A stretch of 64,000 bases of DNA, from the NCBI RefSeq assembly GCF_030684315.1, contig NC_081362.1:95649187-95713186 (forward strand), written 5' to 3'. This document shows positions 1,186 to 62,574 of the stretch, in pieces. The translations under genes and the position numbers were made by a program. The notes below the pieces were generated by a model. That model did no database searches, was not told the DNA's origin, and saw nothing but the letters and a program-made list of their open reading frames with translations. Every line of letters starts with the position of its first letter. The first letter of the stretch is position 1. The DNA comes from Stegostoma tigrinum (Eukaryota).

Positions 1186-1812
1186 CACCCCTACTCCCAC
1201 CACCCGTCCCCCCGCCCCCCATTTCCCCCACCATACTCTCCTCGTACTCCTTCCCCATACTATCCTGCTCCCCCCCACCGAGGTATAACCTGCACGTACT
1301 CCCCTTCTTCCGCCTCATACTCCCACCCCACACCCCCTTCCTGTACTCCCACCCCGTACTCCCCTACTGAACTCCCCCTCCATACTCCCTTGTCTTCCCC
1401 CTCCTGTAATCTACTTGTCTCTCCCAACCCATTCACTCTGTCTCGCCCTCCTGTACTCCTCTGTCTCTGCCTCCTGTTCTCTCCTGTGACCAACCCCACC
1501 CCCACCATGCTCCCTTGTCTCTCCCCCTTTCTCCCCCCACTTCACACTCCCTTCTCTTCCCAACCCATTCTTGCTGCCCTCTACTCTGTAGATCCTGCCC
1601 TCCTCACTCTAAGGGAGAAAAGACTGCTGTTTCCTGCTGAGGCATTGCACAATGTCTCCTTGCCACTTCCCCACCTTCGCTCCCAGCCGTGGCAAAATGC
1701 TTCCTTGAGCACAGCCTCCTTCTCACTCCTCTTAATTCCTCCAATTCCCTCCTTTCCTTTTTTCCACCACCCACCCAATTCCCTATTCCCCCTTTAGCCC
1801 CCATCCACCCAT
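1186..1812. repeat. C/T-rich low-complexity tract inside the GBP intron
   Basis: Strong pyrimidine bias with recurring TACTCCC/CTCCCC motifs. Confidence 0.75.
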
Positions 1813-1903
1813 TTATGTCTTCATTACTTCAAAACAAATTGCAAACTGAATCATAGTCGCTGCAGACAATGGTGTTAAAAATTTAACTTTTCAAACTTTG
1901 CAG

Positions 1904-2142
1904 TTGAGAAAGAAAGACAGTCCCTGGTAGAGCTACAAAAGGCTGCGATGGAGCAACAGACGAAAATGATGAAAAGCATTTTGGAAGCTGTGGCACAAAA
2001 TAATAATAACAATCTGAAAAAAATTATGGAAATGCTGAGACAAGAAAGAGAATTACAAATGAAACAACAGGAGCAAATTACAAGAAGACAACATCAAGAA
2101 ATTGAAAATATGTCAAACAAAACATCATGTGTTATACAGTAA
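1904..2142 (+). CDS. GBP family, terminal coding exon: coiled coil plus CaaX prenylation box
   Basis: Acceptor tttcaaactttgcag|. Phase 1 joins the previous exon (G|TT = V), giving VEKERQSLVELQKAAMEQQTKMM...NKTSCVIQ*. E/Q/K/M-rich helix ending in CVIQ. Confidence 0.85.
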
Positions 2143-2334
2143 AGAAACAATGGATTGGGAAACAAGACAAAATTGTGCCCATATGCATGAATCTTTTATT
2201 TGTTTTCAAATTTTAATGAATGGATAGGTCGGGGTCTGAAAGATTTTTTGGTTTCCCAATCGCTTTATTATTCCTTTTCCGGAATGCACATCCTTATCTC
2301 ACAAGTGCACATGACTACCAATGACTTCTCAATT

Positions 2335-3205
2335 TACTCCTGGGATGTGGGAGGCACTAGTTAGGCCAACATTTATTGCCCGTCCCACATTGCCCCTTCA
2401 CAAGGTGGTGAGGTGCCTTTTTTGAACCCTGCAGTCCATGTGCTCTGGATTGACCCACAATATACTTAGGCAGGGAATTCCAGGATTTTGACCCAGCAAC
2501 ACTGGAAAAAAACAGCGCTATATTTCCAAGCCAGGATGGTGAATGGCTTGCAGAGAAATTTGCAGGGGTTGGTGTTCCCATGTATCTGCTGCCCTTGTCC
2601 TAGATGGAAGTGGTCATGGGTTCGGAAGGTGCTGTCTGAGGATTTTTGGTGAATATCTGTGGTGCATCTTGTAGATAGTACACACTGCTGTTACTGAGCA
2701 ACGGCAGGGCTGGGCAGAGTGGCTTTTGGATGTGATGCCAATCAATTGGGCAGCTTTGTCCCTGATGGTGTCAAGCTTAGTCTGTTGGTGAACCTACACC
2801 CATCCAGGCAAGTGGGGAGTATTCCATCATACTGCTGACCTGTGCCTTGTAGATGGACAGGCTTTATGGAGAGAAGAGGTGAGTTACTTGCTGCAGGATT
2901 CCCAGTCTCTGACCTGCGAATGTAGCCATTGTACATGTATGGCCAGCCCAGTTGAGATTCCAATCAATAGTAACCGCCAGGGTTTGATTCTGGGGAATTC
3001 AGTGATGCTAATGCATTGAATGTAATGGGGCAGTGGTTAGACTGGAGATGGTCATTGTCTGGTATTTGTGTGGCATAAATATTATTTGCCACCTTTCAGC
3101 CCATTTCTGGATGTTGCCCAGATCTTGCTGTATTTGGACATGGACTGCTTCAGTACCTGAGGAGTCGCGAATGGTGCTGAACATTGTGCAATTATCGGCA
3201 AACAT
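2335..3205 (-). mobile_element. CR1/L2-group LINE 3' fragment (second LINE family)
   Basis: ORF 3008-3205 (-) MFADNCTMFSTIRDS...QQDLGNIQKWAERWQ is RT motif C plus thumb. The 3' end reads GGGCAATAAATGTTGGCC on the - strand. Confidence 0.75.
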
Positions 3206-5639
3206 TTCGTCTCACCCTGTCCATGCAGTTCTGCACAGGTACGATGCACCTGTCCTGGATGCTATGGGTGATTTAGCCAGTCTGCCTCACCTGCACATGT
3301 TTGGGCACCAGCCTAAGGAACTCACGCAGAGACTCCCTGTTTGACATGCACATAATCCCGTGTTGCAGCCTCAGCGGGCTGACAGAGCATTTACAGGTTT
3401 ACCTTGTGCTCCTTTTGGACTGTGGTCCTGCACTCTCCATCAAAGTGAGCAATAAAAGAACGCAGAAAGCCAAAAGTATGACTTCAGCTTTGTATGATTT
3501 GTCTTTTGGAACACCAAAAACATACTTTTTAACTTGAAAAGACTTTGCTAAATCCAACTTCTAAAAGGGTATCATAACATGAGCTGCACTTTATGCTCAC
3601 TGCTGGAAAACACATGATACAGCCCTGAGCATGTAGACAGTGCTTATAGTGGGAGGTTTAAAAACCTGCCCTTCTCTTTTTGGCTACAAGAAAGGCCAGG
3701 CAATCTCTTCCCTGCCAACAGAGACTATGGACAAGATTCTGCCCTTTTAATTTTGAACTGTGGGGTTGGGGGAAAGTGTGCTTTGGTGGCACCGAAAACA
3801 TCAACCCCCCAACAAGTTAACCACCTCAACACCTGCCAATCAGCTTATTAAGAACTGACAGGTGCCCATGGACGACCACGTTAACCAATCACAGGCCTCA
3901 ACCCTGATGTCTCCAGCTACCAAAGTGTGCCAGCCAATTGCAGTGTGAGGAGAGAAGGGGTTGTGAGGGGGATTGGAGGCAAGGGACAAGCCCCTTTCCT
4001 TCTCCCATCCATTCTATTGAATGTCCTGAGACTTGGGTCATTAGAGACCCTTAGCCACCAAGCCGTACCACGAGCCTGGCAGGCTGGTCACCCTGGCACC
4101 TCACCTTTCCCAATCAAAGCTACATTTCCCACCCACCAAGCATGCAGGTGACCAGGGATGTGGTGAGTTGAGGTCTCTGAGCGGTGATGAACTGAGCACA
4201 TCTGGACCTCCATTAGGCCATCGCAAGAAAATGGCTCATGGATCTTCTTGCCTGGACCTTAATGAGACTAGATTTGATCCGAAAAGATGGGATTTCTCTC
4301 CAGCATCCACTCGCCACACTATTTCCTTTCTCACCACAAGTCCTGAATGAGGGGGAAGTCATGGTGACATGATAACAAACTGATGGTACAGCAGGCCTTT
4401 GCTCAATCACTCAGGATTTCACCAGGATTCATTTGTTACCATGTGAGACAGAAGGTAATATTACTTTCAATCAATTCTTCGAGGCAGATTTTTTTTAATT
4501 GGTAAAGTTATAGACAGGGAAAACGGAGAACAACACAGTTAACCATAGCTGTACTGTTCCTCATGTACAATTACTCAGTCCCGGATCGATTAAGAATGAC
4601 ATTTTTGCAAATATGTGAGGAAAATGTTGGAGGAAGCCATTCAGCCCCTCAGCCTACTTCTCCATTCAATAAGACCTTGAGATTCCTTTTTTGCATGTTA
4701 CTATTGAATTGTATCACATGAATGTTTGTCATGAATTTAATACTTTATAACATATACAACTGTGCTCCTCCTTTTACTCAACAGCCTGTTGTTTCCAGCC
4801 AATAAAGCTTGTAATTGAAACACGTGCTGGTGTTTTAGAGCTTTGCCTGTCTGCAGACACATTGTTGTCACACAGCTCATACCCACTGGAATATTCCACA
4901 GTGAAAGTTAGTTCCAAGCTGGTTTCAGGTCAGTTCCCTGCAATAGAAGGGCAATTTGTTCAATTAGCTGGAGAGCTGGTATGCATTGCGGATTGAAATA
5001 AAAATGTGGGTTCAATTCCCACTGATCACAAAGAAAAAAGTACAAAGACAACTACAGAACAGGGACAGGCCCTTCAGCCCTCCAAGCCTGCATCGATATG
5101 CTGCCCGTCATAACTAAAACCCCCTACCCTTCCGGGGACTGTATCCCTCTATTCCCATCCTATTCATGTATTTGTCAAGATGCCCTTTAAAAGTCACTAT
5201 CGTATCTGCTATAGTCACTCCCACCACCCTCTGTGTAAAACTTGCCTTGTACATTACCTTTCAACCTTGCCCCTCTCACTTTAAACCCATGGCCCCTGGT
5301 CACTGACTCTTCCACCCTGGGCTTTTGACTATCCACTCTGTCCATGCCGTTCGGTAACCTTGTGGACCTGTGTCAGGTCATCCCTCAACCTCCATTGTTC
5401 CAGTGAGAACAATCCAAGTTTCTCCAACCTCTCCTCATAGCTACTTCCCTTCCTACCAGGCAACAGCCTGGTAAATCTTTTCTGTACCCTATCCAAAGCC
5501 ACTAAATCCCTCTGGTAGTGTGGCGACCAGAATTGAACACATTATTCCAAAGGAGGCCTCACCAAGGATCAATAAACATTCCCTGCCAATTTTTAAACCT
5601 AATGCCCTAGCTGATGAAGGCAAGCATGCCGTATGCCTT

Positions 5640-6424
5640 GATAATAAAATGTGAGGCTGGATGAACACAGCAGGCCAAGCAGCATCTCAGGAGCACAAAA
5701 GCTGACGTTTCGGGCCTAGACCCTTCATCAGAGAGGGGGATGGGGGGAGGGAACTGGAATAAATAGGGAGAGAGGGGGAGGCGGACCGAAGATGGAGAGT
5801 AAAGAAGATAGGTGGAGAAGGTGTGGGTGGGGAGGTAGGGAGGGGATAGGTCAGTCCAGGGAAGACGGACAGGTCAAGGAGGTGGGATGAGGTTAGTAGG
5901 TAGCTGGGGGTGCGGCTTGGGGTGGGAGGAAGGGATGGGTGAGAGGAAGAACCGGTTAGGGAGGCAGAGACAGGTTGGACTGGTTTTGGGATGCAGTGGG
6001 TGGGGGGGAAGAGCTGGGCTGGTTGTGTGGTGCAGTGGGGGGAGGGGATGAACTGGGCTGGTTTAGGGATGCAGTGGGGGAAGGGGAGATTTTGAAACTG
6101 GTGAAGTCCACATTGATACCATATGGCTGCAGGGTTCCCAGGCGGAATATGAGTTGCTGTTCCTGCAACCTTCGGGTGGCATCATTGTGGCAGTGCAGGA
6201 GGCCCATGATGGACATGTCATCAAGAGAATGGGAGGGGGAGTGGAAATGGTTTGCGACTGGGAGGTGCAGTTGTTTGTTGCGAACTGAGCGGAGGTGTTC
6301 TGCAAAGCGGTCCCCAAGCCTCCGCTTGGTTTCCCCAATGTAGAGAAAGCCGCACCGGGTACAGTGGATGCAGTATACCACATTGGCAGATGTGCAGGTG
6401 AACCTCTGCTTAATGTGGAATGTC
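5640..6424 (-). repeat. Left arm of a 785-bp inverted repeat (partner 7648-8432)
   Basis: Direct reverse-complement match. The mirrored ORFs (5975-6343 vs 7729-8097; 6063-6383 vs 7689-8009) have identical translations. Confidence 0.95.
5704..5731 (-). ncRNA. Minimal hammerhead ribozyme motif (copy in the inverted arm)
   Basis: Exact reverse complement of 8341-8368. Confidence 0.8.
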
Positions 6425-8116
6425 CTTCCCAAAATCCACAAACCTGCCTGCCCTGGTCGACCCATCGTCTCAGCCTGCTCCTGCCCCACCGAACTCATCT
6501 CCACCTATCTGGACTCCATTTTCTCCCCTTTGGTCCAGGAACTCCCCACCTATGTCCGTGACACCACCCACGCCCTCCACCTCCTCCAGGACTTCCAATT
6601 CCCTGGCCCCCAACACCTCATATTCACCATGGACGTCCAGTCCCTGTACACCTGCATTCCGCATGGAGATGGCCTCAAGGCCCTCCGCTTCTTCCTGTCC
6701 CGCAGGCCCGACCAGGCCCCCTCCACCGACACTCTCATCCGCCTAGCGGAACTCGTCCTCACACTCAACAACTTCTCTTTTGACTCCTCCCACTTCCTAC
6801 AGACTAAGGGGGTGGCCATGGGCACCCGCATGGGCCCCAGCTATGCCTGCCTCTTTGTAGGTTACGTGGAACAGTCCATCTTCCGCACCTACACAGGCCC
6901 CAAACCCCACCTCTTCCTCCGGTACATTGATGACTGTATCGGCGCCGCCTCTTGCTCCCCAGAGGAGCTCGAACAGTTCATCCACTTCACCAACACCTTC
7001 CACCCCAACCTTCAGTTCACCTGGGCCATCTCCAGCACATCCCTCACCTTCCTGGACCTCTCAGTCTCCATCTCAGGCAACCAGCTTGTAACTGATGTCC
7101 ATTTCAAGCCCACCGACTCCCACAGCTACCTAGAATACACCTCCTCCCACCCACCCTCCTGCAAAAATTCCATCCCCTATTCCCAATTCCTCCGCCTCCG
7201 CCGCATCTGCTCCCACGATAAGACATTCCACTCCCGCACATCCCAGATGTCCAAGTTCTTTAAGGACCGCAACTTCCCCCCCACGGTGATTGAGAACGCC
7301 CTTGACCGCGTCTCCCGCATTTCCCGCAACACATCCCTCACACCCCGCCCCCGCCACAACCGCCCCAAGAGGATCCCCCTCCTTCTCACACACCACCCTA
7401 CCAACCTCCGGATACAACGCATTATCCTCCGACACTTCCGCCATTTACAATCCGACCCCACCACCCAAGACATTTTTCCATCCCCACCCCTGTCTGCTTT
7501 CCGGAGAGACCACTCTCTCCGTGACTCCCTTGTTCGCTCCACACTGCCCTCCAACCCCACCACACCCGGCACCTTCCCCTGCAACCGCAGGAAATGCTAC
7601 ACTTGTCCCCACACCTCCTCCCTCACCCCCATCCCAGGCCCCAAGATGACATTCCACATTAAGCAGAGGTTCACCTGCACATCTGCCAATGTGGTATACT
7701 GCATCCACTGTACCCGGTGCGGCTTTCTCTACATTGGGGAAACCAAGCGGAGGCTTGGGGACCGCTTTGCAGAACACCTCCGCTCAGTTCGCAACAAACA
7801 ACTGCACCTCCCAGTCGCAAACCATTTCCACTCCCCCTCCCATTCTCTTGATGACATGTCCATCATGGGCCTCCTGCACTGCCACAATGATGCCACCCGA
7901 AGGTTGCAGGAACAGCAACTCATATTCCGCCTGGGAACCCTGCAGCCATATGGTATCAATGTGGACTTCACCAGTTTCAAAATCTCCCCTTCCCCCACTG
8001 CATCCCTAAACCAGCCCAGTTCATCCCCTCCCCCCACTGCACCACACAACCAGCCCAGCTCTTCCCCCCCACCCACTGCATCCCAAAACCAGTCCAACCT
8101 GTCTCTGCCTCCCTAA
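6368..8116 (+). CDS. Penelope-like RT + GIY-YIG endonuclease (582 aa, N-terminally truncated, chimeric start)
   Basis: Motifs LPKIHK..GRPIVS, TMDVQSLYT, GVAMG, RYIDD, TFLDL, Cys linker CNRRKCYTC (Neptune-type), and NVVYCIHCTRCGFLYIGET..RFAEH. No internal stops. Confidence 0.9.
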   Translation: MQYTTLADVQVNLCLMWNVLPKIHKPACPGRPIVSACSCPTELISTYLDSIFSPLVQELPTYVRDTTHALHLLQDFQFPGPQHLIFTMDVQSLYTCIPHGDGLKALRFFLSRRPDQAPSTDTLIRLAELVLTLNNFSFDSSHFLQTKGVAMGTRMGPSYACLFVGYVEQSIFRTYTGPKPHLFLRYIDDCIGAASCSPEELEQFIHFTNTFHPNLQFTWAISSTSLTFLDLSVSISGNQLVTDVHFKPTDSHSYLEYTSSHPPSCKNSIPYSQFLRLRRICSHDKTFHSRTSQMSKFFKDRNFPPTVIENALDRVSRISRNTSLTPRPRHNRPKRIPLLLTHHPTNLRIQRIILRHFRHLQSDPTTQDIFPSPPLSAFRRDHSLRDSLVRSTLPSNPTTPGTFPCNRRKCYTCPHTSSLTPIPGPKMTFHIKQRFTCTSANVVYCIHCTRCGFLYIGETKRRLGDRFAEHLRSVRNKQLHLPVANHFHSPSHSLDDMSIMGLLHCHNDATRRLQEQQLIFRLGTLQPYGINVDFTSFKISPSPTASLNQPSSSPPPTAPHNQPSSSPPPTASQNQSNLSLPP

Positions 8117-8340
8117 CCGGTTCTTCCTCTCACCCATCCCTTCCTCCCACCCCAAGCCGCACCCCCAGCTACCTACTAACCTCATCCCACCTCCTTGACC
8201 TGTCCGTCTTCCCTGGACTGACCTATCCCCTCCCTACCTCCCCACCCACACCTTCTCCACCTATCTTCTTTACTCTCCATCTTCGGTCCGCCTCCCCCTC
8301 TCTCCCTATTTATTCCAGTTCCCTCCCCCCATCCCCCTCT

Positions 8341-8368
8341 CTGATGAAGGGTCTAGGCCCGAAACGTC
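8341..8368 (+). ncRNA. Minimal type I hammerhead ribozyme motif in the Neptune 3' end
   Basis: CTGATGA-A-GGGT(CTAG)GCCC-GAAA-CGTC: conserved core, helix II, palindromic ACGT helix III and GUC cleavage triplet. Helix I is only 2 bp (CT/AG). Confidence 0.8.
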
Positions 8369-9976
8369 AGCTTTTGTGCTCCTGAGATGCTGCTTGGCCT
8401 GCTGTGTTCATCCAGCCTCACATTTTATTATCTTGGAATCTCCAGCATCTGCAGTTCCCATTATCTCTCATGCCGTATGCCTTGTTGACTACCTTTTCCA
8501 ACTATGTTGCCACTTTCAGTGACCTGGGTAGCCATACACCCAGATCCATCTGCCTATCAGTACTCTTAATGGTTCTCCCATTTACTGTCTATTTTCCATC
8601 CGGATCAGACCTTCAAAAATGCATACCTCACATTTTTCTGGATTAAACTCCATCTGTAATCTCTCTGTCCAAGTCACCAACTGATCTATATCCATCTGTA
8701 TCCTTTGACGGTCCTCATCGCTATCTGCAATTCCAGAAACCTCGTGTCATCGGCAAACTTACTAATCTGACCAGTTACATTCTCCTCCAAATCATTTGTA
8801 CATAATACAAACAACAAAGGTTCCAACACTGATGTCTGAGGAACGCCACATGTCACAGCCCTCCATTCAGAAACACACCCTTCCACTACTACCCTCTGTC
8901 TTCTATGACCGAGCCCTTTTTTTTAATCCATCTTGGAAGCTCACCACTGACCCCGTGCGACATTACCTTCTGTATCAGCCTGACGTGAGGGACCTTCCCA
9001 AAGGCCTTACTGAAGTTCATGCAGACAACATCCACTGCCCTACTCTCATCGATCATCTTCATCACTTCTTCAAAAAGCTCAGCCAAGTTAGTGAGGCACG
9101 ACCTCCCCTTCACAAAACCATGTTGCCGCTTGCTAATTCACCCTATGACTTCCACGTGCGAGTAAATCCTGTCTCGAAGAATTCTCTCCAGTAACTTCCC
9201 TACCACTGACGTAAGGCTCACCAGCCTGTAATTAGCTGGGTTATCCTTGCAATTCTTCTTAAATGAAAGAACAACATTGGCTATTCTGCAATCCTCTGGG
9301 ACCTCCCCCGTAGCCAGTGAGGGTACAAAGATTTTCCTTTTGGCCCCAGAAATTTCCTCCCTTGCCTCTGTCAGTATTCTGTGATATATTGATCAGGCCC
9401 TGGGGACTTGTCGACCTTAATGTTTTTCAAGACCCCCAATACCTCCTCCCTTTTCATCTCAATATGACCCCAACTATCTACACTCCCTTCCCCAGATTCA
9501 TCATCCACCAATTCCTTCTCTATGGGGAATACTGATGCAAAGTACTCATTTAATACCTCACCCATTTCTACAAAAAATAACTTCCCTGTCCTTGAGTGGG
9601 CCAACCCTCTGCCTGGCTACCCACTTATTCTTTATGTATGTACAAAAGACCTTGGGTTTTCCCTTAATCCTGTCGACCAATGACTTTTCATGACTCCTTT
9701 TAACCCTCCCGACTCCTTGCTTAATTTTCTTTTGACTTTCCTTGTATCCTACCCTCGCTTCATGCGTTCCCAGCCTCCTAGCCTTAATAAATGTTTCCAT
9801 TTTTTCTTTTTGATCAGACTTACAAAATCTCTTGTTATCCAAGGTTCCCTAAACTTGCCATACTTATCCTTTATCCTTACAGGAACGAGCTGGTACTGAG
9901 CACCAAGCAATCTACACTTGAAAGCCTCCCACAAACCATACGCTGATTTGCGCTCGAACATCTGCCTCCAAGGGAG

Positions 9977-11226: not shown

Positions 11227-12526
11227 TTCTATATTCCAATCTTCATTCTTCAATTGATACCTAATATTGTTACAATTAGCATTCCCTCAATTTAGCACCT
11301 TCATCTGACAACTACACCAATCTTTATCCATCAGTCCCTTAAGGCTTACTGAACTGTGATCACTGTACCCGAGCTGCTCCCCTACTGAGACATCGACCAC
11401 CTGGCCAGGCTCATTCCCAATACTAGGTCCAGTACAGCCCCCTTCCTAGTTCGTCTATCTACATACTTTTACAAGAAGCCCTCCTGGATGCTCCTTACAA
11501 ACTCTGCACATCCGAGCCCCAAGCACTAAGTGAGTCCCAGTCAATATATGGGAAGTTAAAATCACTCACAACAACAGCCCTGTTACTTTTATATCTTGCC
11601 AAAATCTGCCCACATAACTGTTCTTCTATTTCCTGCTGGCTGTTGGGAGGCCTATTGTAAACCCCAAACATCCTTCCTGTTCCTGAGCTCTACCCATGTT
11701 GCCTCGCTGTATGAGCCATCCGAGGTGTCCTCCTGCAGTACTGCTGTGATATCATCCTTAACAAGTAGTGCAGCTCCCCCACCTTTTATATCCCCCGATG
11801 CCACCTGAAACATCTGTATCATGGAACGTTAAGGGGCCAATCCTGTCCCTCCCTTAACCAAATCGCTGTAATAGCAACAACACCGTAGCTCCAAGTACTA
11901 ATCCAAGCTCTAAGCTCAACTGCCTTACCTGTTACACTTCTCACATTGAAACAGATGCACTTCAGTCCACCATATCTGCTTTGTTTCACAACCACACCTT
12001 GCCTCCTCTTCCATTGGATTTTACTGGCCAATTCCCTTGTTCCCTTTTAGTCCATTCACCTTTCCTTTGGTTCCCATCCCCCTGCCGAGATAGTTTAAAT
12101 CCTCCCGAGTGATGCCAGCAAACCGCCCAGCCAGAATATTTGGGCCCCTCCAGTTTAGATGCAACCATCCTTCTTGTACAGGTCACCCCTGCCCTGGAAG
12201 AGATCCCAATGGTCCAGATATCTGAAACTCTCCCTCCTTCACCATCTGTTTCGCCAGGTGTTGAGCTGTTCTATCCTCCTAATTCTACCCCTACTAGCAC
12301 CTGGCACAAGGAGTACTCCTGAGATTACAACCTTGGAAGTCCCTTAACTTTCGACCTAACTCCCTGAACTGCTGCTGCAGAATCTTATCACTCATCCTAC
12401 CTATGTAATTAGTACCTATATGGGCCACAACCTCTGGCTCATCACCCTCTCTCTTCAGAATACTTCCTGCCCATTCAGAGACATCCTGGACCCTGGCACC
12501 AGGGAGACAACATACCATCATATATA

Positions 12527-13515
12527 AGAGATAATGGGAACTGCAGATGCTAGAGAATCCAAGATAACAAAGTGTGGAGCTGGATGAATATAGCAGGCCA
12601 AGCAGCATCTCAGGACCACAAAAGCTGATGTTTCGGGCCTAGACCCTTCATCAGAGAGGGGGATGGGGTGAGGGTTCTGGAATAAATAGGGAGAGAGGGG
12701 GAGGAGGACCGAAGATGGAGAGAAAAGAAGATAGGTGGAGAGGAGAGTATAGGTGGGGAGGTAGGGAGGGGATAGGTCCGTCCAGGGAAGACGGACAGGT
12801 CAAGAAGGTGGGATGAGGTTAGTAGGTAGGAAATGGAGGTGCAGCTTGAGGTGGGAGGAAGGGATGAGTGAGAGGAAGAAAAGGTTGGGGAGGCAGAGAC
12901 AGGCTGGGCTGGTTTTGGGATGCAGTGGGTGGAGGGGACGAACTGGGCTGGTTTTGGGATGCGGTGGGGGAAGGGAAGATTTTGAAGCTGGTGAAGTCCA
13001 CATTGATACCATTGGGCTGCAGGGTTCCCAAGCGGAATATGAGTTGCTGCTCCTGCAACCTTCAGGAGGCATTATTGTGGCACTGCAGGAGGCCCAGGAT
13101 GGATATGTCATCTAAAGAATGGGAGGGGGACTGGAAATGGTTCGCGACTGGGAGGTGCAGTTGTTTATTGCGAACCGACGGAGGTGTTCTGCAAAGCCGG
13201 GTCCCTGGCACTGTGCCATTGGTTTCCCCAATGTAGAGGAAGCCACGCCGGGTACAATGGATACAGTATACCACATTGGCAGATGTGCTGGTGAACCTCT
13301 GCTTAATATGGAAAATCATCTTGGGGCCTGGGATAGAGGTGAGGGAGGAGGTGTGGGGGCAAGTGTAGCATTTCCTGCGGTTGCAGGGGAAGGTGCCGGG
13401 TGTGGTAGGGTTGGAGGGCAGTGTGGAGCGAACAAGGGAGTCATGGAGAGAGTCGTCTCTCCAGAAAGCAGACAAGAGTGGGAATGGAAAAATGTCTTAG
13501 GTGGTGGGGTCAGAA
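12527..13515 (-). mobile_element. Neptune-type Penelope-like element 3' fragment (GIY-YIG region, hammerhead at 12627-12654)
   Basis: ORFs 13062-13475 and 12819-13058 closely match the 6368-8116 C-terminus but are frameshifted. Same 3' tail. Confidence 0.92.
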
Positions 13516-15892: not shown

Positions 15893-17745
15893 CTTGCGAG
15901 TTTTGAGAAGATTTGTAGCTCAGTTTGAGGTTCTGCATGTGAGTTTGCTTGCTGAGCTGGAAGGTTAGTTTTCAGACGTTTCATCACCATTCTAGGTAAC
16001 ATCATCAGTGAGCCTCCGACGAAGCGCTGGTGTTATGTCCCGTTTTCTATTTATCTGGTTAGGTTTCCTTGGGTTGGTGATGTCATTTCCTGCATTGGTG
16101 ATGTCATTTCCTGTTCTTTATTAAACAAGAGAGACTTCCAAAAAATGAAACCTGATGGATCCAACACACCACGCTTCTACGGACTACCAAAAATTCACAA
16201 ACCAGGAGCCCCCCTCAGACCCATAGTGTCGCTACCTGGAACACCAACCTACAGGTTAGCCAAGGAACTACACCAAAGACTAAAACACCTAGTAGAAGAC
16301 TCCCACCACTCCATTCGCTCCACCCAAGAATTCCTGAACACCATCAAAGACACCAAGATAGAAGTGGATGAAATAATGGTCTCGTTTGACATAACAGCCC
16401 TGTTCACATCCATCAACATCAACCTGGCCAAAGAAACACTGACTACAGTATTAGAAGAGCCGAAGACACATACACCAGACACCAGCAACCTCATCAGCAA
16501 GGACAACGTCATCAAGCTAGTGGGCCTATGCCTCACCACCCACTTCACTTTCAATAACAAAACCTACAGACAAACCAACGGTACACCCATGGGATCTCCG
16601 ATATCAGGGTTCTTAGCAGAGGCAGTAACGCAGAGACTCGAACAAACAGCTCTGCCAATCATCCAACCCAAACTTTGGGTCCACTACATATATGACACCT
16701 TTGTCATCACTAAACAAATCAAATTAGAGGAAATCTTCGAGACCATCAATAATACCCTTACTGGCATAACATTCACAAAAGAGGAGGAAAACAACAGCAA
16801 ACTGCCATTCCCAGATGTCACAGTAGAGCGAACAGCCAATGGGTAACTTCATATCAGCGTCTACAGGAAAACAACACATACGGACCAAATACTGAACTAC
16901 AGGACCAACCATCCCAACACCCACAAACGAAGCTGCACTAGAACATTATTCCAACGAGCCACCACACACTGCAGCACAGAGGAACTACGAAGAGCAGAGG
17001 AAAATCACCTATACAGCGTATTCAAAAAGAATGGGTACCCTATGAACACAGTCCGCCGATTCCTCAGCAATAAACCCAAACAAACAGACAAAACGGTCCC
17101 AGAAACCATAACCACTTTCTGCTACATCAAAGACATTTCCGAAATGACTGCCAGACTACTCGGACCCCTTGGCATCAGGGTAGCCCACACACCCACCAAC
17201 ACACTAAAACAGCAGCTAATGAACTTAAAAGACCCGATACAGACAACAAGCAAAACGAATGTCATCTACAAAATACCTTGCAACAACTGTGACAAACACT
17301 ACATTGCACAAACAGGCAGAAAGCTAGCCACCAGGATACGTGAACATCAACTAGCCACAAAACGACATGACCCACTATCACTAGTATCCTTACATACAGA
17401 TGAGGAAGGACACCACTTTGATTGGGACAACACATCCATCCTAGGACAAGCCAAACAGAGACATGCACGAGAATCCCTAGAAGCATGGCATTCCAACCGG
17501 AACTCCATCAACAAACACATTGATTTGGAGCCAATCTACCATCCCCTGAGAAAAAAAACAGGAAATGACATCACCAACGCAGGAAATGACATCACCAACC
17601 CAAGGAAACCTAACCAGATAAATAGAAAGCGGGACATAACACCAGCGCTTCGTCGGAGGCTCACTGATGGTGTTACCTAGAATGGTGACGAAACGTCTGA
17701 AAACGAACCTTCCAGCTCAGCGAGCAAACTCACATCCAGAACCTC
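15893..17745 (+). mobile_element. Penelope/Poseidon-type element, 5'-truncated, with an inverted pseudo-LTR (~15927-16118 vs ~17553-17745)
   Basis: ORFs 16145-16846 (FYGLPKIHK..LRPIVS, SFDITALFT, GTPMGSP) and 17042-17680 (NVIYKIPC..C..HYIAQT..RIREH). No Cys linker. Internal stop and a damaged YVDD (YIYD). Confidence 0.92.
15975..16008 (-). ncRNA. Minimal hammerhead motif in the Poseidon-type pseudo-LTR (partner at 17664-17697 + has core change CTGATGG)
   Basis: - strand CTGATGA-T-GTTACC(TAGAAT)GGTGAT-GAAA-CGTC, flanked by a TCA/TGA helix I. Confidence 0.75.
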
Positions 17746-30770: not shown

Positions 30771-31305
30771 GAGATAACGTGTAGAGTTGGATGAACACAG
30801 CAGGCCAAGCAGCAGGAAAGCTGGCGTTCTGCTAGCGGGAGGAGAAATTGTGAAGCTTGTGAAGTATCCCCTCCCACTACTGCATCCCAAAACCAGCCCA
30901 CCCCCACCTCCCTAACTTGTCCTTCTTCCCACCTATCCCCGCCTCCCACCTCAAGTTCCACCGCATCTCCTACCTACTAACCTCATCCCACCTCCAGGAC
31001 CTGTTCGTGCTCCCTGTATTATCGCCTCCCCACCTACACTCACCTTAACTGGTTCCATCACCGCCTCTTTGACTGGTGTCTCCTCTCCACTTATCTTCTC
31101 CTCTATTGCTCTTCTATCCACTTTCCCCTCTCTCCCTATTTATTTCAGAAACCCCTTCCCCTCCACCCCACCATTTCTGATGAAGGGTCTAGGCCCAAAA
31201 CATCAGCGTTCCTACTCCTAAGATGCTGCTTGGCCTGCTGTGCTCATCCAACTCTACACCTTGTTATCTCAGATTCTCCAGCATCTGCAGTTCCTACTGT
31301 CTCTG
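30771..31305 (+). mobile_element. Non-autonomous Neptune fold-back derivative (short inverted arm plus 3' end; hammerhead 31177-31204 with GAAA->AAAA)
   Basis: Left arm GAGATAACGTGTAGAGTTGGATGAACACAGCAGGCCAAGCAGCA is the reverse complement of ~31225-31270. The remainder matches 7970-8468. Confidence 0.85.
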
Positions 31306-32015: not shown

Positions 32016-34915
32016 AACCAAGGGATCGGTTAAAGTGTGTTTGCTAACCAAGGGATCGGTTAAAGTGTGTTTGCTTTAATGCAAGGAGTATCAGGAATAA
32101 AAGTGATGAACTTAGAGCATGGATCAGTACCTGGTGCTATGATGTTGTGGCCATAACAGAGACATGGGTTTCTCATGGGCTGGAATGGTTGCTGGATATT
32201 CCAGGGTTTAGAACATTTAAAAAGAATAGGGAGGGGGGAAAAAGAGGAGGGGGTGTAGCACTACTAATCAGAGAGGGTATCACAGCTACAGAAGCTTCCA
32301 TTGTCGAGGAAGATCTGCCTACTGAGTCAGTATGGGTGGAAATTAGGAGCAGCAAGGGAGTAGTCACCTCGTTAGGGGTTTACTACAGGCCCCCCAATAG
32401 CAGCAGGGAGATTGTAGAAAGCATAGGTCGACAGATTTTGGAAAAGTGTGGACGCAGTAGGGTTGTTGTAATGGGTGACTTTAACTTTCCTAATATTGAT
32501 TGGAACCTCCTTCGAGCAGAAGATTTGAATGGAGCTGTTTTTGTAAGGTGTGTTCAGGAGGGTTTCCTAACGCAGTACGTTAACAGGCCGACGAGGGGAG
32601 AGGCCATTCTAGACTTGGTGCTCGGAAACGAGCCGGGGCAGGTATCAGATCTTGTGGTGGGAGAGCATTTTGGTGATAGTGACCATAACACTCTCTCATT
32701 CTACATAGCTATGGAGAAGGAGAGGATTAGGCAGAATGGGAGGATATTTAATTGGGGAAGAGGAAACTATGATGCGATTAGACACGAGTTAGGAAGCATG
32801 GACTGGGAGCAGTTGTTCCATGGTAAGGGAAGTATAGACATGTGGAGATTGTTTAAGGAACAGTTGTTGGGAGTGATGAGTAAATATGTCCCTCTGAGAC
32901 AGGCAAGAAGGGGTAAGATAAAGGAACCTTGGATGACGAGAGCGGTGGAGCTTCTAGTGAAAAGGAAGAAGGTAGCTTACATAAGGTGGAGGAAGCTAGG
33001 GTCAAGTTCAGCTAGAGAGGATTACATGCAGGCAAGGAAGGAGCTCAAAAATGGTCTGAGGAGAGCCAGGAGGGGGCACGAGAAAGGCTTGGCAGAAGGA
33101 ATCCGGGAAAACACAAAGGCATTTTACACTTACGTGAGGAATAAGAGAATGGTCAAAGAAAGAGTAGGGCCGATCAGGGATAGCATAGGGAACTTGTGTG
33201 TGGAGCCTGAGGAGGTAGGGGAAGCCCTAAATGAGTTTTTTGCTTCTGTCTTTACGAAAGAAACGACCTGTGTAGTGAATGAAACCTTTGAAGAGCAGGT
33301 GTGCATGCTGGAATGGATAGAGATAGAGGAAGCTGATGTACTGAAAATTTTGTCAAACATTAAGATTGACAAGTCGCCAGGCCCGGATCAGATTTGTCCT
33401 CGGCTGCTTTGGGAAGCGAGAAATGCAATTGCTTCGCCACTTGCGAAGATCTTTGCATCCTCGCTCTCCACTGGAGTCGTACCTGAGGACTGGAGAGAGG
33501 CAAATGTAATTCCTCTCTTCAAGAAAGGAAATAGGGAAATCCCCGGCAATTATAGACCGGTAAGTCTCACGTCTGTCGTCTGCAAGGTGTTAGAAAGGAT
33601 TCTGAGGGATAAGATTTATGACCATCTGGAAGAGCATGGCTTGATCAAATACAGTCAACACGGCTTTGTGAGGGGTAGGTCATGCCTTACAAACCTTATC
33701 GAGTTTTTTGAGGATGTGACTAGTAAGGTTGATGAGGGTCAAGCTGTGGATGTGGTGTATATGGACTTCAGTAAGGCATTTGATAAGGTTCCCCATGGAA
33801 GGCTCATTCAGAAGGTCAGGAGGAATGGGATACAGGGGAACTTAGCTGCTTGGATACAGAATTGGCTGGCCAACAGAAGACAGCGAGTGGTAGTAGAAGG
33901 AAAATATTCTGCCTGGAAGTCAGTGGTGAGTGGGGTTCCACAGGGCTCTGTCCTTGGGCCTCTACTGTTTGTAATTTTTATTAATGACTTGGACGAGGGA
34001 ATTGAAGGATGGGTCAGCAAGTTTGCAGACGACACAAAGGTCGGAGGTGTCGTTGACAGTGTAGAGGGCTGTTGTAGGCTGCAGCGGGACATTGACAGGA
34101 TGCAGAGATGGGCTGAGAGGTGGCAGATGGAGTTCAACCTGGATAAATGCGAGGTGATGCATTTTGGAAGGTCGAATTTGAAAGCTGAGTACAGGATTAA
34201 GGATAGGATTCTTGGCAGCGTGGAGGAACAGAGGGATCTTGGTGTGCAGATACATAGATCCCTTAAAATGGCCACCCAAGTGGACAGGGTTGTTAAGAAA
34301 GCATATGGTGTTTTGGCTTTCATTAACAGGGGGATTGAGTTTAAGAGTCGTGAGATCTTGTTGCAGCTCTATAAAACTTTGGTTAGACCGCACTTGGAAT
34401 ACTGCGTCCAGTTCTGGGCGCCCTATTATAGGAAAGATGTGGATGCTTTGGAGAGGGTTCAGAGGAGGTTTACCAGGATGCTGCCTGGACTGGAGGGCTT
34501 ATCTTATGAAGAGAGGTTGACTGAGCTCGGTCTCTTTTCATTGGAGAAAAGGAGGAGGAGAGGGGACCTAATTGAGGTATACAAGATAATGAGAGGCATA
34601 GATAGAGTTGATAGCCAGAGACTATTTCCCAGGGCAGAAATGGCTAGCACGAGGGGTCATAGTTTTAAGCTGGTTGGTGGAAAGTATAGAGGGGATGTCA
34701 GAGGCAGGTTCTTTACGCAGAGAGTTGTGAGAGCATGGAATGCGTTGCCAGCAGCAGTTGTGGAAGCAAGGTCATTGGGGTCATTTAAGAGACTGCTGGA
34801 CATGCATATGGTCACAGAAATTTGAGGGTGCATCCATGAGGATCAATGGTCGGCACAACATTGTGGGCTGAAGGGCCTGTTCTGTGCTGTACTGTTCTAT
34901 GTTCTATGTTCTATG
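32016..34915 (+). mobile_element. Young CR1 LINE truncated just upstream of ORF2; 30-bp tandem duplication at the 5' end
   Basis: AACCAAGGGATCGGTTAAAGTGTGTTTGCT x2 (32016-32075), an uninterrupted ORF2 and a (TTCTATG)3 tail. Confidence 0.97.
32048..34825 (+). CDS. CR1 ORF2: APE endonuclease + reverse transcriptase, open frame of ~925 codons
   Basis: Frame is open from 32048 (PRDRLKCVCFNARS...) through AITETW, GDFNFP, SDH, GNYRPVSLTS, DFSKAFD, GVPQGS and KFADD to the stop at 34825. Confidence 0.93.
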   Translation, partial: PRDRLKCVCFNARSIRNKSDELRAWISTWCYDVVAITETWVSHGLEWLLDIPGFRTFKKNREGGKRGGGVALLIREGITATEASIVEEDLPTESVWVEIRSSKGVVTSLGVYYRPPNSSREIVESIGRQILEKCGRSRVVVMGDFNFPNIDWNLLRAEDLNGAVFVRCVQEGFLTQYVNRPTRGEAILDLVLGNEPGQVSDLVVGEHFGDSDHNTLSFYIAMEKERIRQNGRIFNWGRGNYDAIRHELGSMDWEQLFHGKGSIDMWRLFKEQLLGVMSKYVPLRQARRGKIKEPWMTRAVELLVKRKKVAYIRWRKLGSSSAREDYMQARKELKNGLRRARRGHEKGLAEGIRENTKAFYTYVRNKRMVKERVGPIRDSIGNLCVEPEEVGEALNEFFASVFTKETTCVVNETFEEQVCMLEWIEIEEADVLKILSNIKIDKSPGPDQICPRLLWEARNAIASPLAKIFASSLSTGVVPEDWREANVIPLFKKGNREIPGNYRPVSLTSVVCKVLERILRDKIYDHLEEHGLIKYSQHGFVRGRSCLTNLIEFFEDVTSKVDEGQAVDVVYMDFSKAFDKVPHGRLIQKVRRNGIQGNLAAWIQNWLANRRQRVVVEGKYSAWKSVVSGVPQGSVLGPLLFVIFINDLDEGIEGWVSKFADDTKVGGVVDSVEGCCRLQRDIDRMQRWAERWQMEFNLDKCEVMHFGRSNLKAEYRIKDRILGSVEEQRDLGVQIHRSLKMATQVDRVVKKAYGVLAFINRGIEFKSREILLQLYKTLVRPHLEYCVQFWAPYYRKDVDALERVQRRFTRMLPGLEGLSYEERLTELGLFSLEKRRRRGDLIEVYKIMRGIDRVDSQRLFPRAEMASTRGHSFKLVGGKYRGDVRGRFFTQRVVRAWNALPAAVVEARSLGSFKRLLDMHMVTEI

Positions 34916-36761: not shown

Positions 36762-36892
36762 GAGAGATAATGGGAACTGCAGATGCTGGAGAATCCAAGA
36801 TAACAAAGTGTGAGGCTGGATGAACACAGCATGCCAAGCAGCATCTCAGGAGCACAACAGCTGACGTTTTGGGCCTAGACCCTTCATCAGAG
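36762..36892 (-). mobile_element. ~130-bp Neptune terminal fragment beginning at the hammerhead (36863-36890)
   Basis: Matches 8339-8468. Core GAAA->AAAA. Confidence 0.88.
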
Positions 36893-38999
36893 TATCACAG
36901 TTAATGGCAAACTCTTTATAGTGTGGGGCCCAGAAAAGGGGCATTGAAAGCATTGGCTTGCTTTTGTTTTAGACTAAGGATTGATTTTAGTTAGAAAGCA
37001 GCTTTTGGAGCCGTTTTTGATGAAAAAGGCTGAGGTCAGAAACAAGTATTGTTTCTCTCCTGGATAGGAGTACAGGGCAACTGAAGGGAAGTGTACCTTG
37101 ATGTGTGTACATGTTTAGTTATAAATCTGCACATTTTTAAAAGACTGATAAATTCTAAAGTTTATTTTTATTCTATAATAAATTATGGACTTAAATGAGA
37201 AAATAACATCTTTGTAACCATGGATTACTGCATGGCTTGAAAGCAAGTAAACTGACACTCGTTGGAAACAATGTTTACAGAGGTGCCGTTTCCAGCAGTG
37301 GTTTAAGTATTGTTTGCAGTCGTCAAAGGGTTGTGCACAAACGAAGCCTTGGTTAATAACAACACCCGAGAGGTCTGTAAACTAGGGACTCACTAATGAT
37401 TGAAAAAGCCTTCTGCCTGCCAGAACTTTTAGGTTTGGTTCTCAGATAGCAGAACAGCTTGAGACTGTGAACAAGATACAGAGAAGCCTTTAGACATCAA
37501 GCAGCTCGGGAGCTCTCTCCAGTTTCTGCAGTAAAAACTAATTTAAGCCTCAAAAAAAGGTAATTTTCATTCAGCAATTGCTGCCAGCTATAATTTTTAA
37601 AAAATAAGTTTTTAGGGGTGAATCAACATCTGTACATTTTGCAAACTGGTGAAACACCTGGAGGATAACCACCAAACAGCACTCCGATTAGCACAGGAAC
37701 CATCTCAGCAGATCCTGTGAGCAAAGGCCACTGACTTGCTTTGTTTTCCCTCCTTCAACGATGACACCCATGCTTTATTATGTGCGTGTACACGTGAGTG
37801 TTTATAAAGGGGATTAGAGATTTAACTTGCATTTCTATGCAAACTTTCTATTTTTATTTCAAAATTTCCAGCATCCACAGAATTTCACTTTTACTTGAGA
37901 CTCTCATTATCTGACTGTCCCATTATATCAGCATTTTTTAAACAGTGACTGCAGATCAACAAACAGATATTAGAATAAATTTAAATTGCTCCTTAAATTA
38001 GTCAAAAAAAAACTCAATTTTACATTACTTATTTGATTGACACTACTAAAACAAAAATGTAGTATATTAAATGTTCCTCTTTTAATCAAGTGTACTTGCA
38101 GGTCAGCTTTTACCTGAAAATATTCCGCTGAGTCATCTTTGGACAGTTCATTAGAAAAGTTTTGTTAATTAAAATTAGAACTATATAAACTCAGTGCAAC
38201 AGGAGGCCATTCAACCCATTTTCCTGTCCTGGGTCTTTGAAAGAACCATTGTGCTTCGCTTCACAGCCCCACATTATTTCCCTGCAAGATCTTTGTCTTC
38301 AAATGTCTGTCCAATTCATTTTCAGAAATTATTGATGGAATCAGCTCCCAACATATTTTTAGGTTGAGTGTTCCATTCCTACCAAACATTTTGGTTTCAT
38401 CTCTGCTTTTACCTCAATGAACTCAGGTATTGATCTACTTACCAGAATACCTTTGATCACGTTGAAAATGTTGATGCAGTCTTAACCTTCACCGTTCCAT
38501 GAACAATACAAATTCTCCCCATTCTGTAGCCTGTCTACAGCTTCTACACCTTTTAGAGGGTATTGTCCAAAACTGTACACAATTCTCTGGCTAACACTTG
38601 AGTGTTTCAGTGAATTCCACTCCTCAGTTCCAAAATCAAATAATTCAAGTGTTGTTTTTACTTAACCACTCAATCAACTTGAAGCGCCACCAATTTAAGG
38701 ATGTGTGTTAATGGACACCAAGATGTTTCTGTTCAACACTTTTCAAAGTCACTTTATTGTCCCATATTTCTAGTAACCTTAATGTGCCCAATTTTCCAGT
38801 TGGTCTATGCCATTCTGGTGTTTGTAACTAGCCTCAATGATCAACTATTTCACTTTCATATCACCTTTAAACTTTATGTAGGTGCAACAGGCAGCATAGT
38901 TTGGGTCATTTTAACTTTTTACAAAAATGACCACACTAAGATTGCAGTTGCAAGGGTATGTGAGAGAGACTAAAAGGAACAGTGACACAGCTGCAAAGA

Positions 39000-39278
39000 T
39001 AGTAGGAACTGCAGATGCTGGAGAATCTGAGATAATGTGAAGCTGGATGATCACAGCAGACCAAGCAGCATCAGAAAAGCTGACATTTCTGGCCTAGACC
39101 CTTCTTCAGAAATGGGGTTCTGAAATAAATAGAGGGGGGGGGTGAACAGAAGATGGATAGAGAAGATAAGTGGAGAGGATACAGACAGGTGAAAGAGGTG
39201 GGGATGGAGCAAATAAAGGTGAGTGTAGGTGGGAAGTTAGGGAGGACGTTCAGATCGGGGGGGGGGGGGTTAGTAGGT
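39000..39278 (-). mobile_element. Older Neptune-family 3' remnant with a hammerhead-like motif (39082-39109)
   Basis: - strand CTGAAGAAGGGTCTAGGCCAGAAATGTCAG plus the tail CCAGCATCTGCAGTTCC. Confidence 0.8.
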
Positions 39279-61689: not shown

Positions 61690-62511
61690 TAGAACATAGA
61701 ACATAGAACAGTACAGCACAGAACAGGCCCTTCAGCCCACAATGTTGTGCCGACCATTGATCCTCATGTATGCACCCTCAAATTTCTGTGACCATATACA
61801 TGTCCAGCAGTCTCTTAAATGACCCCAATGACCTTGCTTCCACAACTGCTGCTGGCAACGCATTCCATGCTCTCACAACTCTCTGCGTAAAGAACCTGCC
61901 TCTGACATCCCCTCTATACTTTCCACCAACCAGCTTAAAACTATGACCCCTCGTGCTAGCCATTTCTGCCCTGGGAAATAGTCTCTGGCTATCAACTCTA
62001 TCTATGCCTCTCATTATCTTGTATACCTCAATTAGGTCCCCTCTCCTCCTCCTTTTCTCCAATGAAAAGAGACCGAGCTCAGTCAACCTCTCTTCATAAG
62101 ATAAGCCCTCCAGTCCAGGCAGCATCCTGGTAAACCTCCTCTGAACCCTCTCCAAAGCATCCACATCTTTCCTATAACGGGGCGACCAGAACTGGACGCA
62201 GTATTCCAAGTGCGGTCTAACCAAAGTTTTATAGAGCTGCAACAAGATCTCACGACTCTTAAACTCAATCCCCCTGTTAATGAAAGCCAAAACACCATAT
62301 GCTTTCTTAACAACCCTGTCCACTTGGGTGGCCATTTTAAGGGATCTATGTATCTGCACACCAAGATCCCTCTGTTCCTCCACACTGCCAAGAATCCTAT
62401 CCTTAATCCTGTACTCAGCTTTCAAATTCGACCTTCCAAAATGCATCACCTCACATTTATCCAGGTTGAACTCCATCTGCCACCTCTCAGCCCATCTCTG
62501 CATCCTGTCAA
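61690..62511 (-). mobile_element. Young 5'-truncated CR1, same subfamily as 32016-34915, inserted into a + strand LINE fragment (61500-61689, 62512-62570)
   Basis: ORF 61778-62503 differs from the 32 kb ORF2 C-terminus at 3 of 241 residues. (TAGAACA)n tail. Confidence 0.95.
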
Positions 62512-62574
62512 TAACCTAGAAGGACCAGGGCAGCAGATACATGGTCACGCTACTTCCTCAAGTTCCCCTTGAAA

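What the first reader, a model, noticed from the sequence alone, without database searches (positions are those of the whole stretch)
5625..8484. Very recent Neptune insertion forming a 785-bp perfect fold-back with a hammerhead on each strand
Seen: arms 5640-6424 and 7648-8432 appear identical, the spacer is 1223 bp, the TSD is a perfect 16 bp, only the right end has a 36-nt extension (8433-8468), and the ORF is uninterrupted. Established: Penelope-like elements form inverted pseudo-LTRs with a short 3' extension and carry minimal hammerheads. Inference: the family is currently active. Read-through from either direction, including the GBP gene whose stop lies 3.5 kb upstream, would give a 785-bp dsRNA stem (siRNA source, ADAR or MDA5 substrate), and the DNA is prone to hairpin or cruciform formation.
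Basis: partly seen in the sequence, partly recalled or inferred. Interest (0 to 1): 0.7.

Follow-up and report, generated by a model that had tools for sequence, protein, structure and literature searches.

The report
Ordinary young inverted Penelope-like insertion
This mirror-image insertion is real and young, but it is a half-length, likely non-autonomous copy of a very abundant Penelope-like jumping gene, laid down in the published head-to-head pattern that likely hundreds of its sister copies in this genome share, and nothing here shows that it affects the neighbouring immune gene.

Summary
The anatomy is confirmed to the base: 785/785 identical arms, 1,223-bp spacer, 16-bp TSD, one-sided 36-nt tail, one hammerhead-like motif per strand. 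The reading needs three corrections. (1) The ORF has no stop but is 5'-truncated: it holds 563 of about 1,085 codons and has no upstream direct pLTR, so the copy is likely non-autonomous. (2) It is not exceptional. Its subfamily gives 2,080 exact 47-nt hits; 27 head-to-head pairs lie among the first 100 listed, and 4 of 26 sister pairs have longer perfect arms. (3) The subfamily is young (0.27% mean divergence, one copy with an open 1,085-codon frame), but identical arms cannot show present activity. The GBP dsRNA idea has no support here: four AATAAA lie between the GBP stop and the insertion, and no transcript was shown. Best mechanism, inferred: both strands of a staggered cut prime reverse transcription from two fixed start sites. 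All 27 of 27 pairs have one tailed and one tail-less end, and paired arms share rare variants about 28-fold more often than unpaired arms. The architecture is published, and the scan has noted it many times elsewhere in this genome.

The parts
5625..5640 (+). Left target-site duplication (16 bp; last base shared with the arm)
   Evidence: empty site colinear with a CR1 paralog
5640..6424 (-). Inverted, 5'-truncated copy of the element's 3' 785 bp, beginning at the tail-less end
   Evidence: tail-less end class seen in all 27 pairs
5702..5731 (-). Minimal hammerhead-like motif in the inverted arm
6423..6424 (+). Central junction; 2-nt microhomology (TC) with the element sequence upstream of 6425, not above chance on its own
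   Evidence: compared with L031
6425..8468 (+). Forward, 5'-truncated copy (2,044 bp) ending at the tailed end
6425..8116 (+). C-terminal 563 codons of the roughly 1,085-codon ORF, no internal stop; N-terminal half missing
6563..6991 (+). Reverse-transcriptase core (RVT_1, E=2.2e-5, below Pfam's cut-off), YIDD motif
7580..7606 (+). C-X4-C-X2-C linker (CNRRKCYTC) between RT and endonuclease, typical of Neptune and Nematis
   Evidence: definition in PMC8557442 passage
7691..7813 (+). GIY-YIG endonuclease core (E=2e-4, 22.0 bits against a cut-off of 22.6)
7648..8432 (+). Right arm, identical to the reverse complement of 5640-6424
7985..8101 (+). Three 39-nt tandem units at the ORF end
8341..8370 (+). 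Minimal hammerhead-like motif: core CUGAUGA...GAAA, bulged A, 4-bp helix II, palindromic ACGU helix III, only 2-bp helix I
   Evidence: 90,316 exact copies genome-wide
8433..8468 (+). 36-nt tail; in complete copies it runs on into the 5' part of the element
8469..8484 (+). Right target-site duplication
5030..5640 (-). Old CR1-type LINE fragment that hosts the insertion (continues 8469 to about 9400); the CR1 label is recalled from its translation
1904..2142 (+). Likely last coding exon of a GBP gene, ending in CaaX (CVIQ); context only

Best explanation
This is a single young, 5'-truncated and likely non-autonomous insertion of a Neptune-type Penelope-like retrotransposon, likely made when both strands of a 16-nt staggered cut each primed reverse transcription on the same element RNA (or RNAs of one source copy), one from the tailed and one from the tail-less start site, and the two unfinished cDNAs were joined head to head. 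Shown: the anatomy, the truncation, the subfamily, the one-tail rule and the variant sharing between arms. Inferred: the priming of both strands and the joining step. It is most likely neutral cargo inside an old LINE, downstream of the likely 3' end of the GBP gene.
For: Both element 3' ends abut the TSD and both 5' break points meet centrally. Among subfamily pairs, 27 of 27 (26 sisters plus this one; complex L098 left out) have exactly one tailed and one tail-less end, tail left in 13 and right in 14, with TSDs of 13-17 bp in 26 of 27. The 11 more diverged inverted loci with both ends readable show the same rule. All 27 close opposite-strand pairs among the first 100 listed hits are head to head and none is tail to tail. 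Paired arms share derived variants at 1.21 per kb against 0.043 per kb for arms of different loci, and 15 of the 25 shared variants occur at that locus only (26 pairs). In vitro, an anole Penelope protein cuts and extends both strands, has two RT start sites that bracket the tail, and is predicted to be a dimer (PMC11167929). Truncation. Abundance.
Against: The focal arms carry no derived variant, so the shared-template test says nothing about this locus itself. Shared variants could also come from arm-to-arm gene conversion. PMC11167929 saw no difference in start site between top and bottom strands, and worked on a Poseidon element, not a Neptune. The pairs were chosen by an exact 47-nt match in both arms, which favours young, perfect copies, and come from one contig only. 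The junction microhomology is 2 nt. No read spanning either junction of this locus was seen.
Confidence: 0.72

Rival explanations
1. The inverted arm arose from one priming event followed by fold-back or self-priming and template switching, as proposed for rotifer Penelopes on an antisense template.
For: PMC3846280 (passages) explains head-to-head repeats with junction palindromes by self-priming. It would also give arms that share variants. Some sister pairs have spacers of only 5-8 bp.
Against: There is no palindrome at this junction and the spacer is 1,223 bp. Spacers range from 5 bp to over 3 kb. A single start does not by itself explain why the second end always stops at the other fixed site and why the tail sits on either the longer or the shorter arm.
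Confidence: 0.15
2. The insertion is a functional dsRNA source: GBP read-through makes a 785-bp stem that feeds siRNA, ADAR or MDA5 and regulates the gene.
For: GBP is on the same strand, with its stop 3,483 bp upstream. Any transcript crossing both arms would pair them fully; a shortened model with the outer 161 bp of each arm folds into a perfect stem.
Against: Four AATAAA lie between stop and insertion (3451, 4801, 4997, 5571; about 1.5 expected by chance, my arithmetic). A second GBP 3' end in the same cluster shares 1682-5025 at 98.6% but has neither the host LINE nor this insertion. Likely hundreds of equivalent inverted pairs exist, so this locus adds no unique dsRNA sequence. In such a transcript the sense hammerhead would be buried in the stem.
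Confidence: 0.06
3. The perfect inversion is an assembly or library artefact (fold-back chimera).
For: The arms are 100% identical, and no sequencing evidence across this locus's junctions was obtained.
Against: A fold-back artefact would not create a 16-bp TSD inside a colinear CR1, an unduplicated 1,223-bp spacer, or ends at the family's two fixed positions. Sister pairs show arm identities from 88% to 100%.
Confidence: 0.03
4. The insertion is older and its arms were made identical by gene conversion.
For: Paired arms share locus-private variants in some sister loci.
Against: The focal arms equal the subfamily's commonest letters at every column and are 100% identical to arms at unrelated loci; the unpaired spacer has only 2 private changes in 1,223 bp.
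Confidence: 0.04

Closest known systems
Canonical endonuclease-bearing Penelope-like insertions with inverted pLTR and one-sided 30-40 bp tail (PMC8557442 Fig. 2 legend; PMC3846280 Pen2a_Av; passages read)
   Same: 5' truncation, adjacent inverted 5'-truncated copy, tail at one end, short TSD, RT plus C-terminal GIY-YIG, hammerhead in the pLTR.
   Different: No upstream direct pLTR here and half the ORF is missing; TSDs of 13-17 bp against 8-10 bp in the rotifer examples; the inverted part reaches 466 bp into the ORF.
Neptune clade of Penelope-like elements
   Same: C-X4-C-X2-C linker between RT and endonuclease, absent from the C-terminal frame of the second PLE in the window (16847-17677).
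   Different: Clade placement by tree was not tested; Nematis shares the linker.
Anolis Poseidon PAc (PMC11167929, main text read)
   Same: The tail is the stretch between two fixed ends and continues into the 5' part of the element.
   Different: PAc is Penelope/Poseidon, and its ORF starts inside the hammerhead; here the long frame begins just after the tail. In vitro no strand bias of start sites was seen, whereas genomic pairs here always hold one end of each kind.
Minimal hammerheads of metazoan PLEs (PMC4209133, results and discussion read)
   Same: Conserved core, extra base before helix II, palindromic 15.2-16.2, no stable helix III, opposite-strand pairs.
   Different: Helix I is only 2 bp here (4-5 bp in their consensus, 2 bp in D. 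virilis); cleavage untested.
L1 twin priming (recalled, not read)
   Same: Both target strands prime cDNA and are joined at a microhomology.
   Different: L1 twin priming inverts the 5' part without duplicating it; here the 3' 785 bp are present twice.

Membership tests
Endonuclease-bearing Penelope-like element | Single ORF with RT followed by a C-terminal GIY-YIG endonuclease | tested here: met
   RVT_1 E=2.2e-5 and GIY-YIG E=2e-4, both just under Pfam's curated cut-offs
Endonuclease-bearing Penelope-like element | pLTR in direct or inverted arrangement with an optional 30-40 bp tail | tested here: met
   inverted 785-bp arm and 36-nt tail; direct pLTR ahead of the ORF in L107
Endonuclease-bearing Penelope-like element | Telomerase-like RT by phylogeny | not tested
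   no tree against named references was built
Neptune clade | CX2-5CxxC linker between RT and endonuclease | tested here: met
   CNRRKCYTC at aa 386 of the 563-aa piece; definition from PMC8557442
Neptune clade | RT tree placement apart from Nematis | not tested
   no named reference sequences on hand; a 35-species survey reports Neptune and Poseidon as the widespread groups and lists no Nematis (bioRxiv 10.64898/2026.07.22.740005 section 14)
Minimal type I hammerhead | Core CUGANGA...GAAA...NUH, helix II, palindromic 15.2-16.2 | tested here: met
   no Rfam hammerhead hit
Minimal type I hammerhead | Helix I of 4-5 bp | tested here: not met
   2 bp only; the hammerhead fold (-3.6 kcal/mol) loses to an alternative hairpin (-11.4)
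Minimal type I hammerhead | Self-cleavage as a dimer or with protein help | not testable with these tools
   needs an RNA assay
Autonomous, active PLE copy | Full-length ORF with an upstream direct pLTR | tested here: not met
   starts at codon 523 of 1,085; no direct pLTR
Currently active family | Insertion polymorphism or de novo insertions | tested here: inconclusive
   contigs of one sample did not bridge or exclude the junctions; youth shown by 17 of 69 arms or copies with no change

The most novel reading that the evidence does not exclude
Penelope-like elements integrate by obligate asymmetric double priming: one ribonucleoprotein dimer extends both strands of a roughly 14-16 nt staggered cut from one RNA source, one subunit always starting at the tailed site and the other 36 nt upstream, so that every inverted insertion carries exactly one tail. 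This genome's young subfamily, with intact full-length copies, would be a ready system to test it.
Probability: 0.55. Interest if true: 0.45.

Novelty: new member of a known kind. Interest (0 to 1): 0.2.

Why it matters
The locus itself matters little: it is one of likely several hundred young inverted insertions. The family matters more. How Penelope-like elements finish integration is still open (PMC11167929 says the later steps await validation), and the strict one-tail rule with shared variants between arms constrains that mechanism. A subfamily with near-identical copies and an open 1,085-codon frame is a candidate for an active vertebrate Neptune element. If GBP transcripts did cross the insertion, it would be a polymorphic dsRNA beside an interferon-type gene, but nothing here shows that.

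Tried and rejected
Rfam scan: no hammerhead family matched; the motif rests on sequence features. Free folding of the hammerhead region was no better than shuffles (z from -0.44 to 0.82). Sequencing runs: no RNA holder listed. Laying four runs on 1500-7640: element columns were swamped by other copies, and no listed contig bridged 5640 or 6424/6425. Run X5 (kind not on record) has contigs over 1838-4782, three of four matching this GBP copy rather than its paralog, and none listed from 4783 to the insertion apart from repeats. This is one study of unknown kind and its first contig runs into the presumed intron, so I do not count it as evidence on the transcript end. Laying four runs of one sample on 8446-8800: fragmented, neither filled nor empty site shown. 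The GBP paralog gave no empty site, because its homology ends at 5025. Apparent allelic differences in runs X1 and X3 largely match the paralog's letters, so they say nothing about the individual. Two variants that looked private to the focal arms turned out to mark a 2,080-hit subfamily, which removed the case for gene conversion here. L039 was checked as a full-length tandem and is two separate insertions. Paper searches for Penelope with shark and Neptune, with elasmobranch and with twin priming listed nothing on this family or this mechanism by title or abstract start; the library lacks most subscription papers and Repbase was not available, so this is no proof of absence. No tree, protein homolog search or structure prediction was run.

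Full report
Observation. The arms 5640-6424 and 7648-8432 are perfect reverse complements over 785 bp, with 1,223 bp between them. The 16-bp TSD lies at 5625-5640 and 8469-8484, and its last base is shared with the arm. With the insert removed, the flanks align without a gap at the site to another CR1-type copy in the window, so the duplication was made by the insertion. The 36-nt extension is on the right only. The hammerhead-like core lies at 8341 (+) and 5731 (-). Rfam does not recognise it, and the region folds no better than shuffles.

What it is. The forward part encodes an RT core (RVT_1, E=2.2e-5), a C-X4-C-X2-C linker and a GIY-YIG endonuclease (E=2e-4); both Pfam scores fall just under the curated cut-offs. 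The linker defines Neptune and Nematis according to PMC8557442 (passages), and the second Penelope-like element in the window lacks it in its C-terminal frame. I file the element as Neptune-type by motif; no tree was built. The frame has no stop, but it begins at codon 523 of the 1,085-codon frame in sister copy L107, which also has a direct pLTR in front. The focal copy has lost the N-terminal half and has no direct pLTR, so it is likely non-autonomous. The junction happens to be in frame with two ATGs in the inverted arm, but the product would lack the N-terminal region.

How common it is. The genome (3.2 Gb, 835 contigs) holds 90,316 exact copies of the 30-nt hammerhead motif. A 47-nt stretch that marks the focal subfamily has 2,080 exact hits. 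Among the first 100 listed, all on contig C1, 27 are close opposite-strand pairs, all head to head; scaled up, that is roughly 560 pairs (my extrapolation). I fetched those 27 pairs and 13 unpaired hits. One pair is complex and was left out. Of the other 26, 8 have perfect arms (a ninth, L090, only up to an indel), and 4 are longer than 785 bp: 1,881, 1,597, 929 and 788 bp. The exact-match filter favours young copies. A broader first sample gave arm identities of 88-99%.

Age. Across 69 arms or copies the subfamily differs from its commonest letters by 0.27%, and 17 of 69 show no change. The focal copy differs at 2 of 2,044 columns, both in the spacer. It is young, and among the younger members. 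It is not shown to be of the present: zero differences in two 785-bp arms bound divergence to 0.19% per arm, about 2.7 million generations at 7e-10 per site per generation. That rate is borrowed from the epaulette shark (PMC10587355, passages). That the host is a cartilaginous fish is my recollection of such repeats and the wording of earlier notes, not a call result. Copying errors would make the true age lower. Attempts to find a filled or empty allele in public contigs were inconclusive.

Mechanism. Both element 3' ends touch the target duplication and both 5' break points meet in the middle, at a 2-nt microhomology. In 27 of 27 pairs exactly one end carries the tail, on the left in 13 and on the right in 14, with TSDs of 13-17 bp in 26 of 27. 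The 11 older inverted loci with both ends readable agree. Paired arms share derived variants at 1.21 per kb against 0.043 per kb between loci, and 15 of 25 shared variants are private to their locus (26 pairs). The tail runs on into the 5' part of the element in 1,378 places, so the template extends past both ends. In vitro, the anole element PAc cuts and extends both strands from two internal start sites that bracket the tail (PMC11167929, main text). The simplest reading is double priming from one RNA source with the two starts used once each. This is inferred. Against it: that paper saw no strand bias in start sites, conversion can also make arms share variants, and the focal arms carry no derived variant. 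Self-priming, proposed in PMC3846280 (passages), remains a rival.

Hammerheads. The motif fits the minimal type of PMC4209133 (results and discussion read), which reports no cleavage by a monomer and opposite-strand pairs 100-700 bp apart. Helix I is only 2 bp here. 'One on each strand' follows from the inversion: a transcript through the locus holds one sense copy, and in a shortened model that copy is fully paired with the other arm.

GBP. A GBP gene lies upstream on the + strand, and its likely last exon ends 3,483 bp before the insertion. Four AATAAA hexamers intervene. A paralogous GBP 3' end about 175 kb away shares 1682-5025 at 98.6% and lacks both the host LINE and this insertion. No transcript across the arms was shown. 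A 785-bp stem would form if one existed, but likely hundreds of sister loci offer the same sequence. Cruciform extrusion across a 1.2-kb spacer is unlikely (recalled general knowledge); sisters with 5-8 bp spacers are better candidates.

Verdict. The architecture is the published typical form (PMC8557442 Fig. 2 legend), and earlier notes of this scan describe it, the double-priming reading and the tandem arrays at many other places in this genome; those notes are unchecked and I relied on my own counts. Supplements were not read for any paper; they may hold named Neptune sequences or shark families. New member of a known kind; interest 0.2.

Noticed in passing
L142-L149 (e.g. G000:C1:104860300-104863600, C1:140328300-140330800): Head-to-tail arrays of 166-362 bp units, mostly one hammerhead motif per unit, 97-100% identical to the young subfamily and ending at the usual element ends. 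L143 has six hammerheads on one arm and two on the inverted arm, with the same 329-bp unit. They look like retrozyme-type non-autonomous derivatives; earlier notes report the same.
   Followed up: partly
L107:1020-4843 (G000:C1:132142600-132147900): Complete-looking subfamily copy: direct pLTR with hammerhead and tail, open 1,085-codon frame, inverted arm and 15-bp TSD; a candidate source element.
   Followed up: partly
L085, L097, L100, L084: Young sister insertions that are near-perfect palindromes: arms of 384-614 bp with spacers of 5-30 bp, retained in the genome.
   Followed up: no
L013-L030: One older head-to-head insertion (about 92% identical to the focal copy, arms about 2 kb) appears at 18 of the 30 best loci on many contigs, so it was likely multiplied inside a larger amplified unit.
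   Followed up: partly
G000:C11:95478158-95481499 (L127): Inverted paralog of the GBP 3' end (98.6% over window 1682-5025) with a one-codon deletion in the last exon; an independent, older copy of the same element family lies 2.3 kb downstream of it.
   Followed up: partly
window 15956-17680: Second Penelope-like element without the cysteine linker (Penelope/Poseidon-type by motif), broken by a stop at about 16845.
   Followed up: partly
window 32048-34825: CR1-type LINE with an open 925-codon frame; a 99% identical 823-bp piece lies at 61690-62512, so this LINE family is young too.
   Followed up: no
window 12524-13514, 30867-31304, 36762-36892, 38997-39176: Older fragments of the same Penelope-like family, 72-95% identical to the focal copy; the one at 36762-36892 is itself a short inverted pair.
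   Followed up: no
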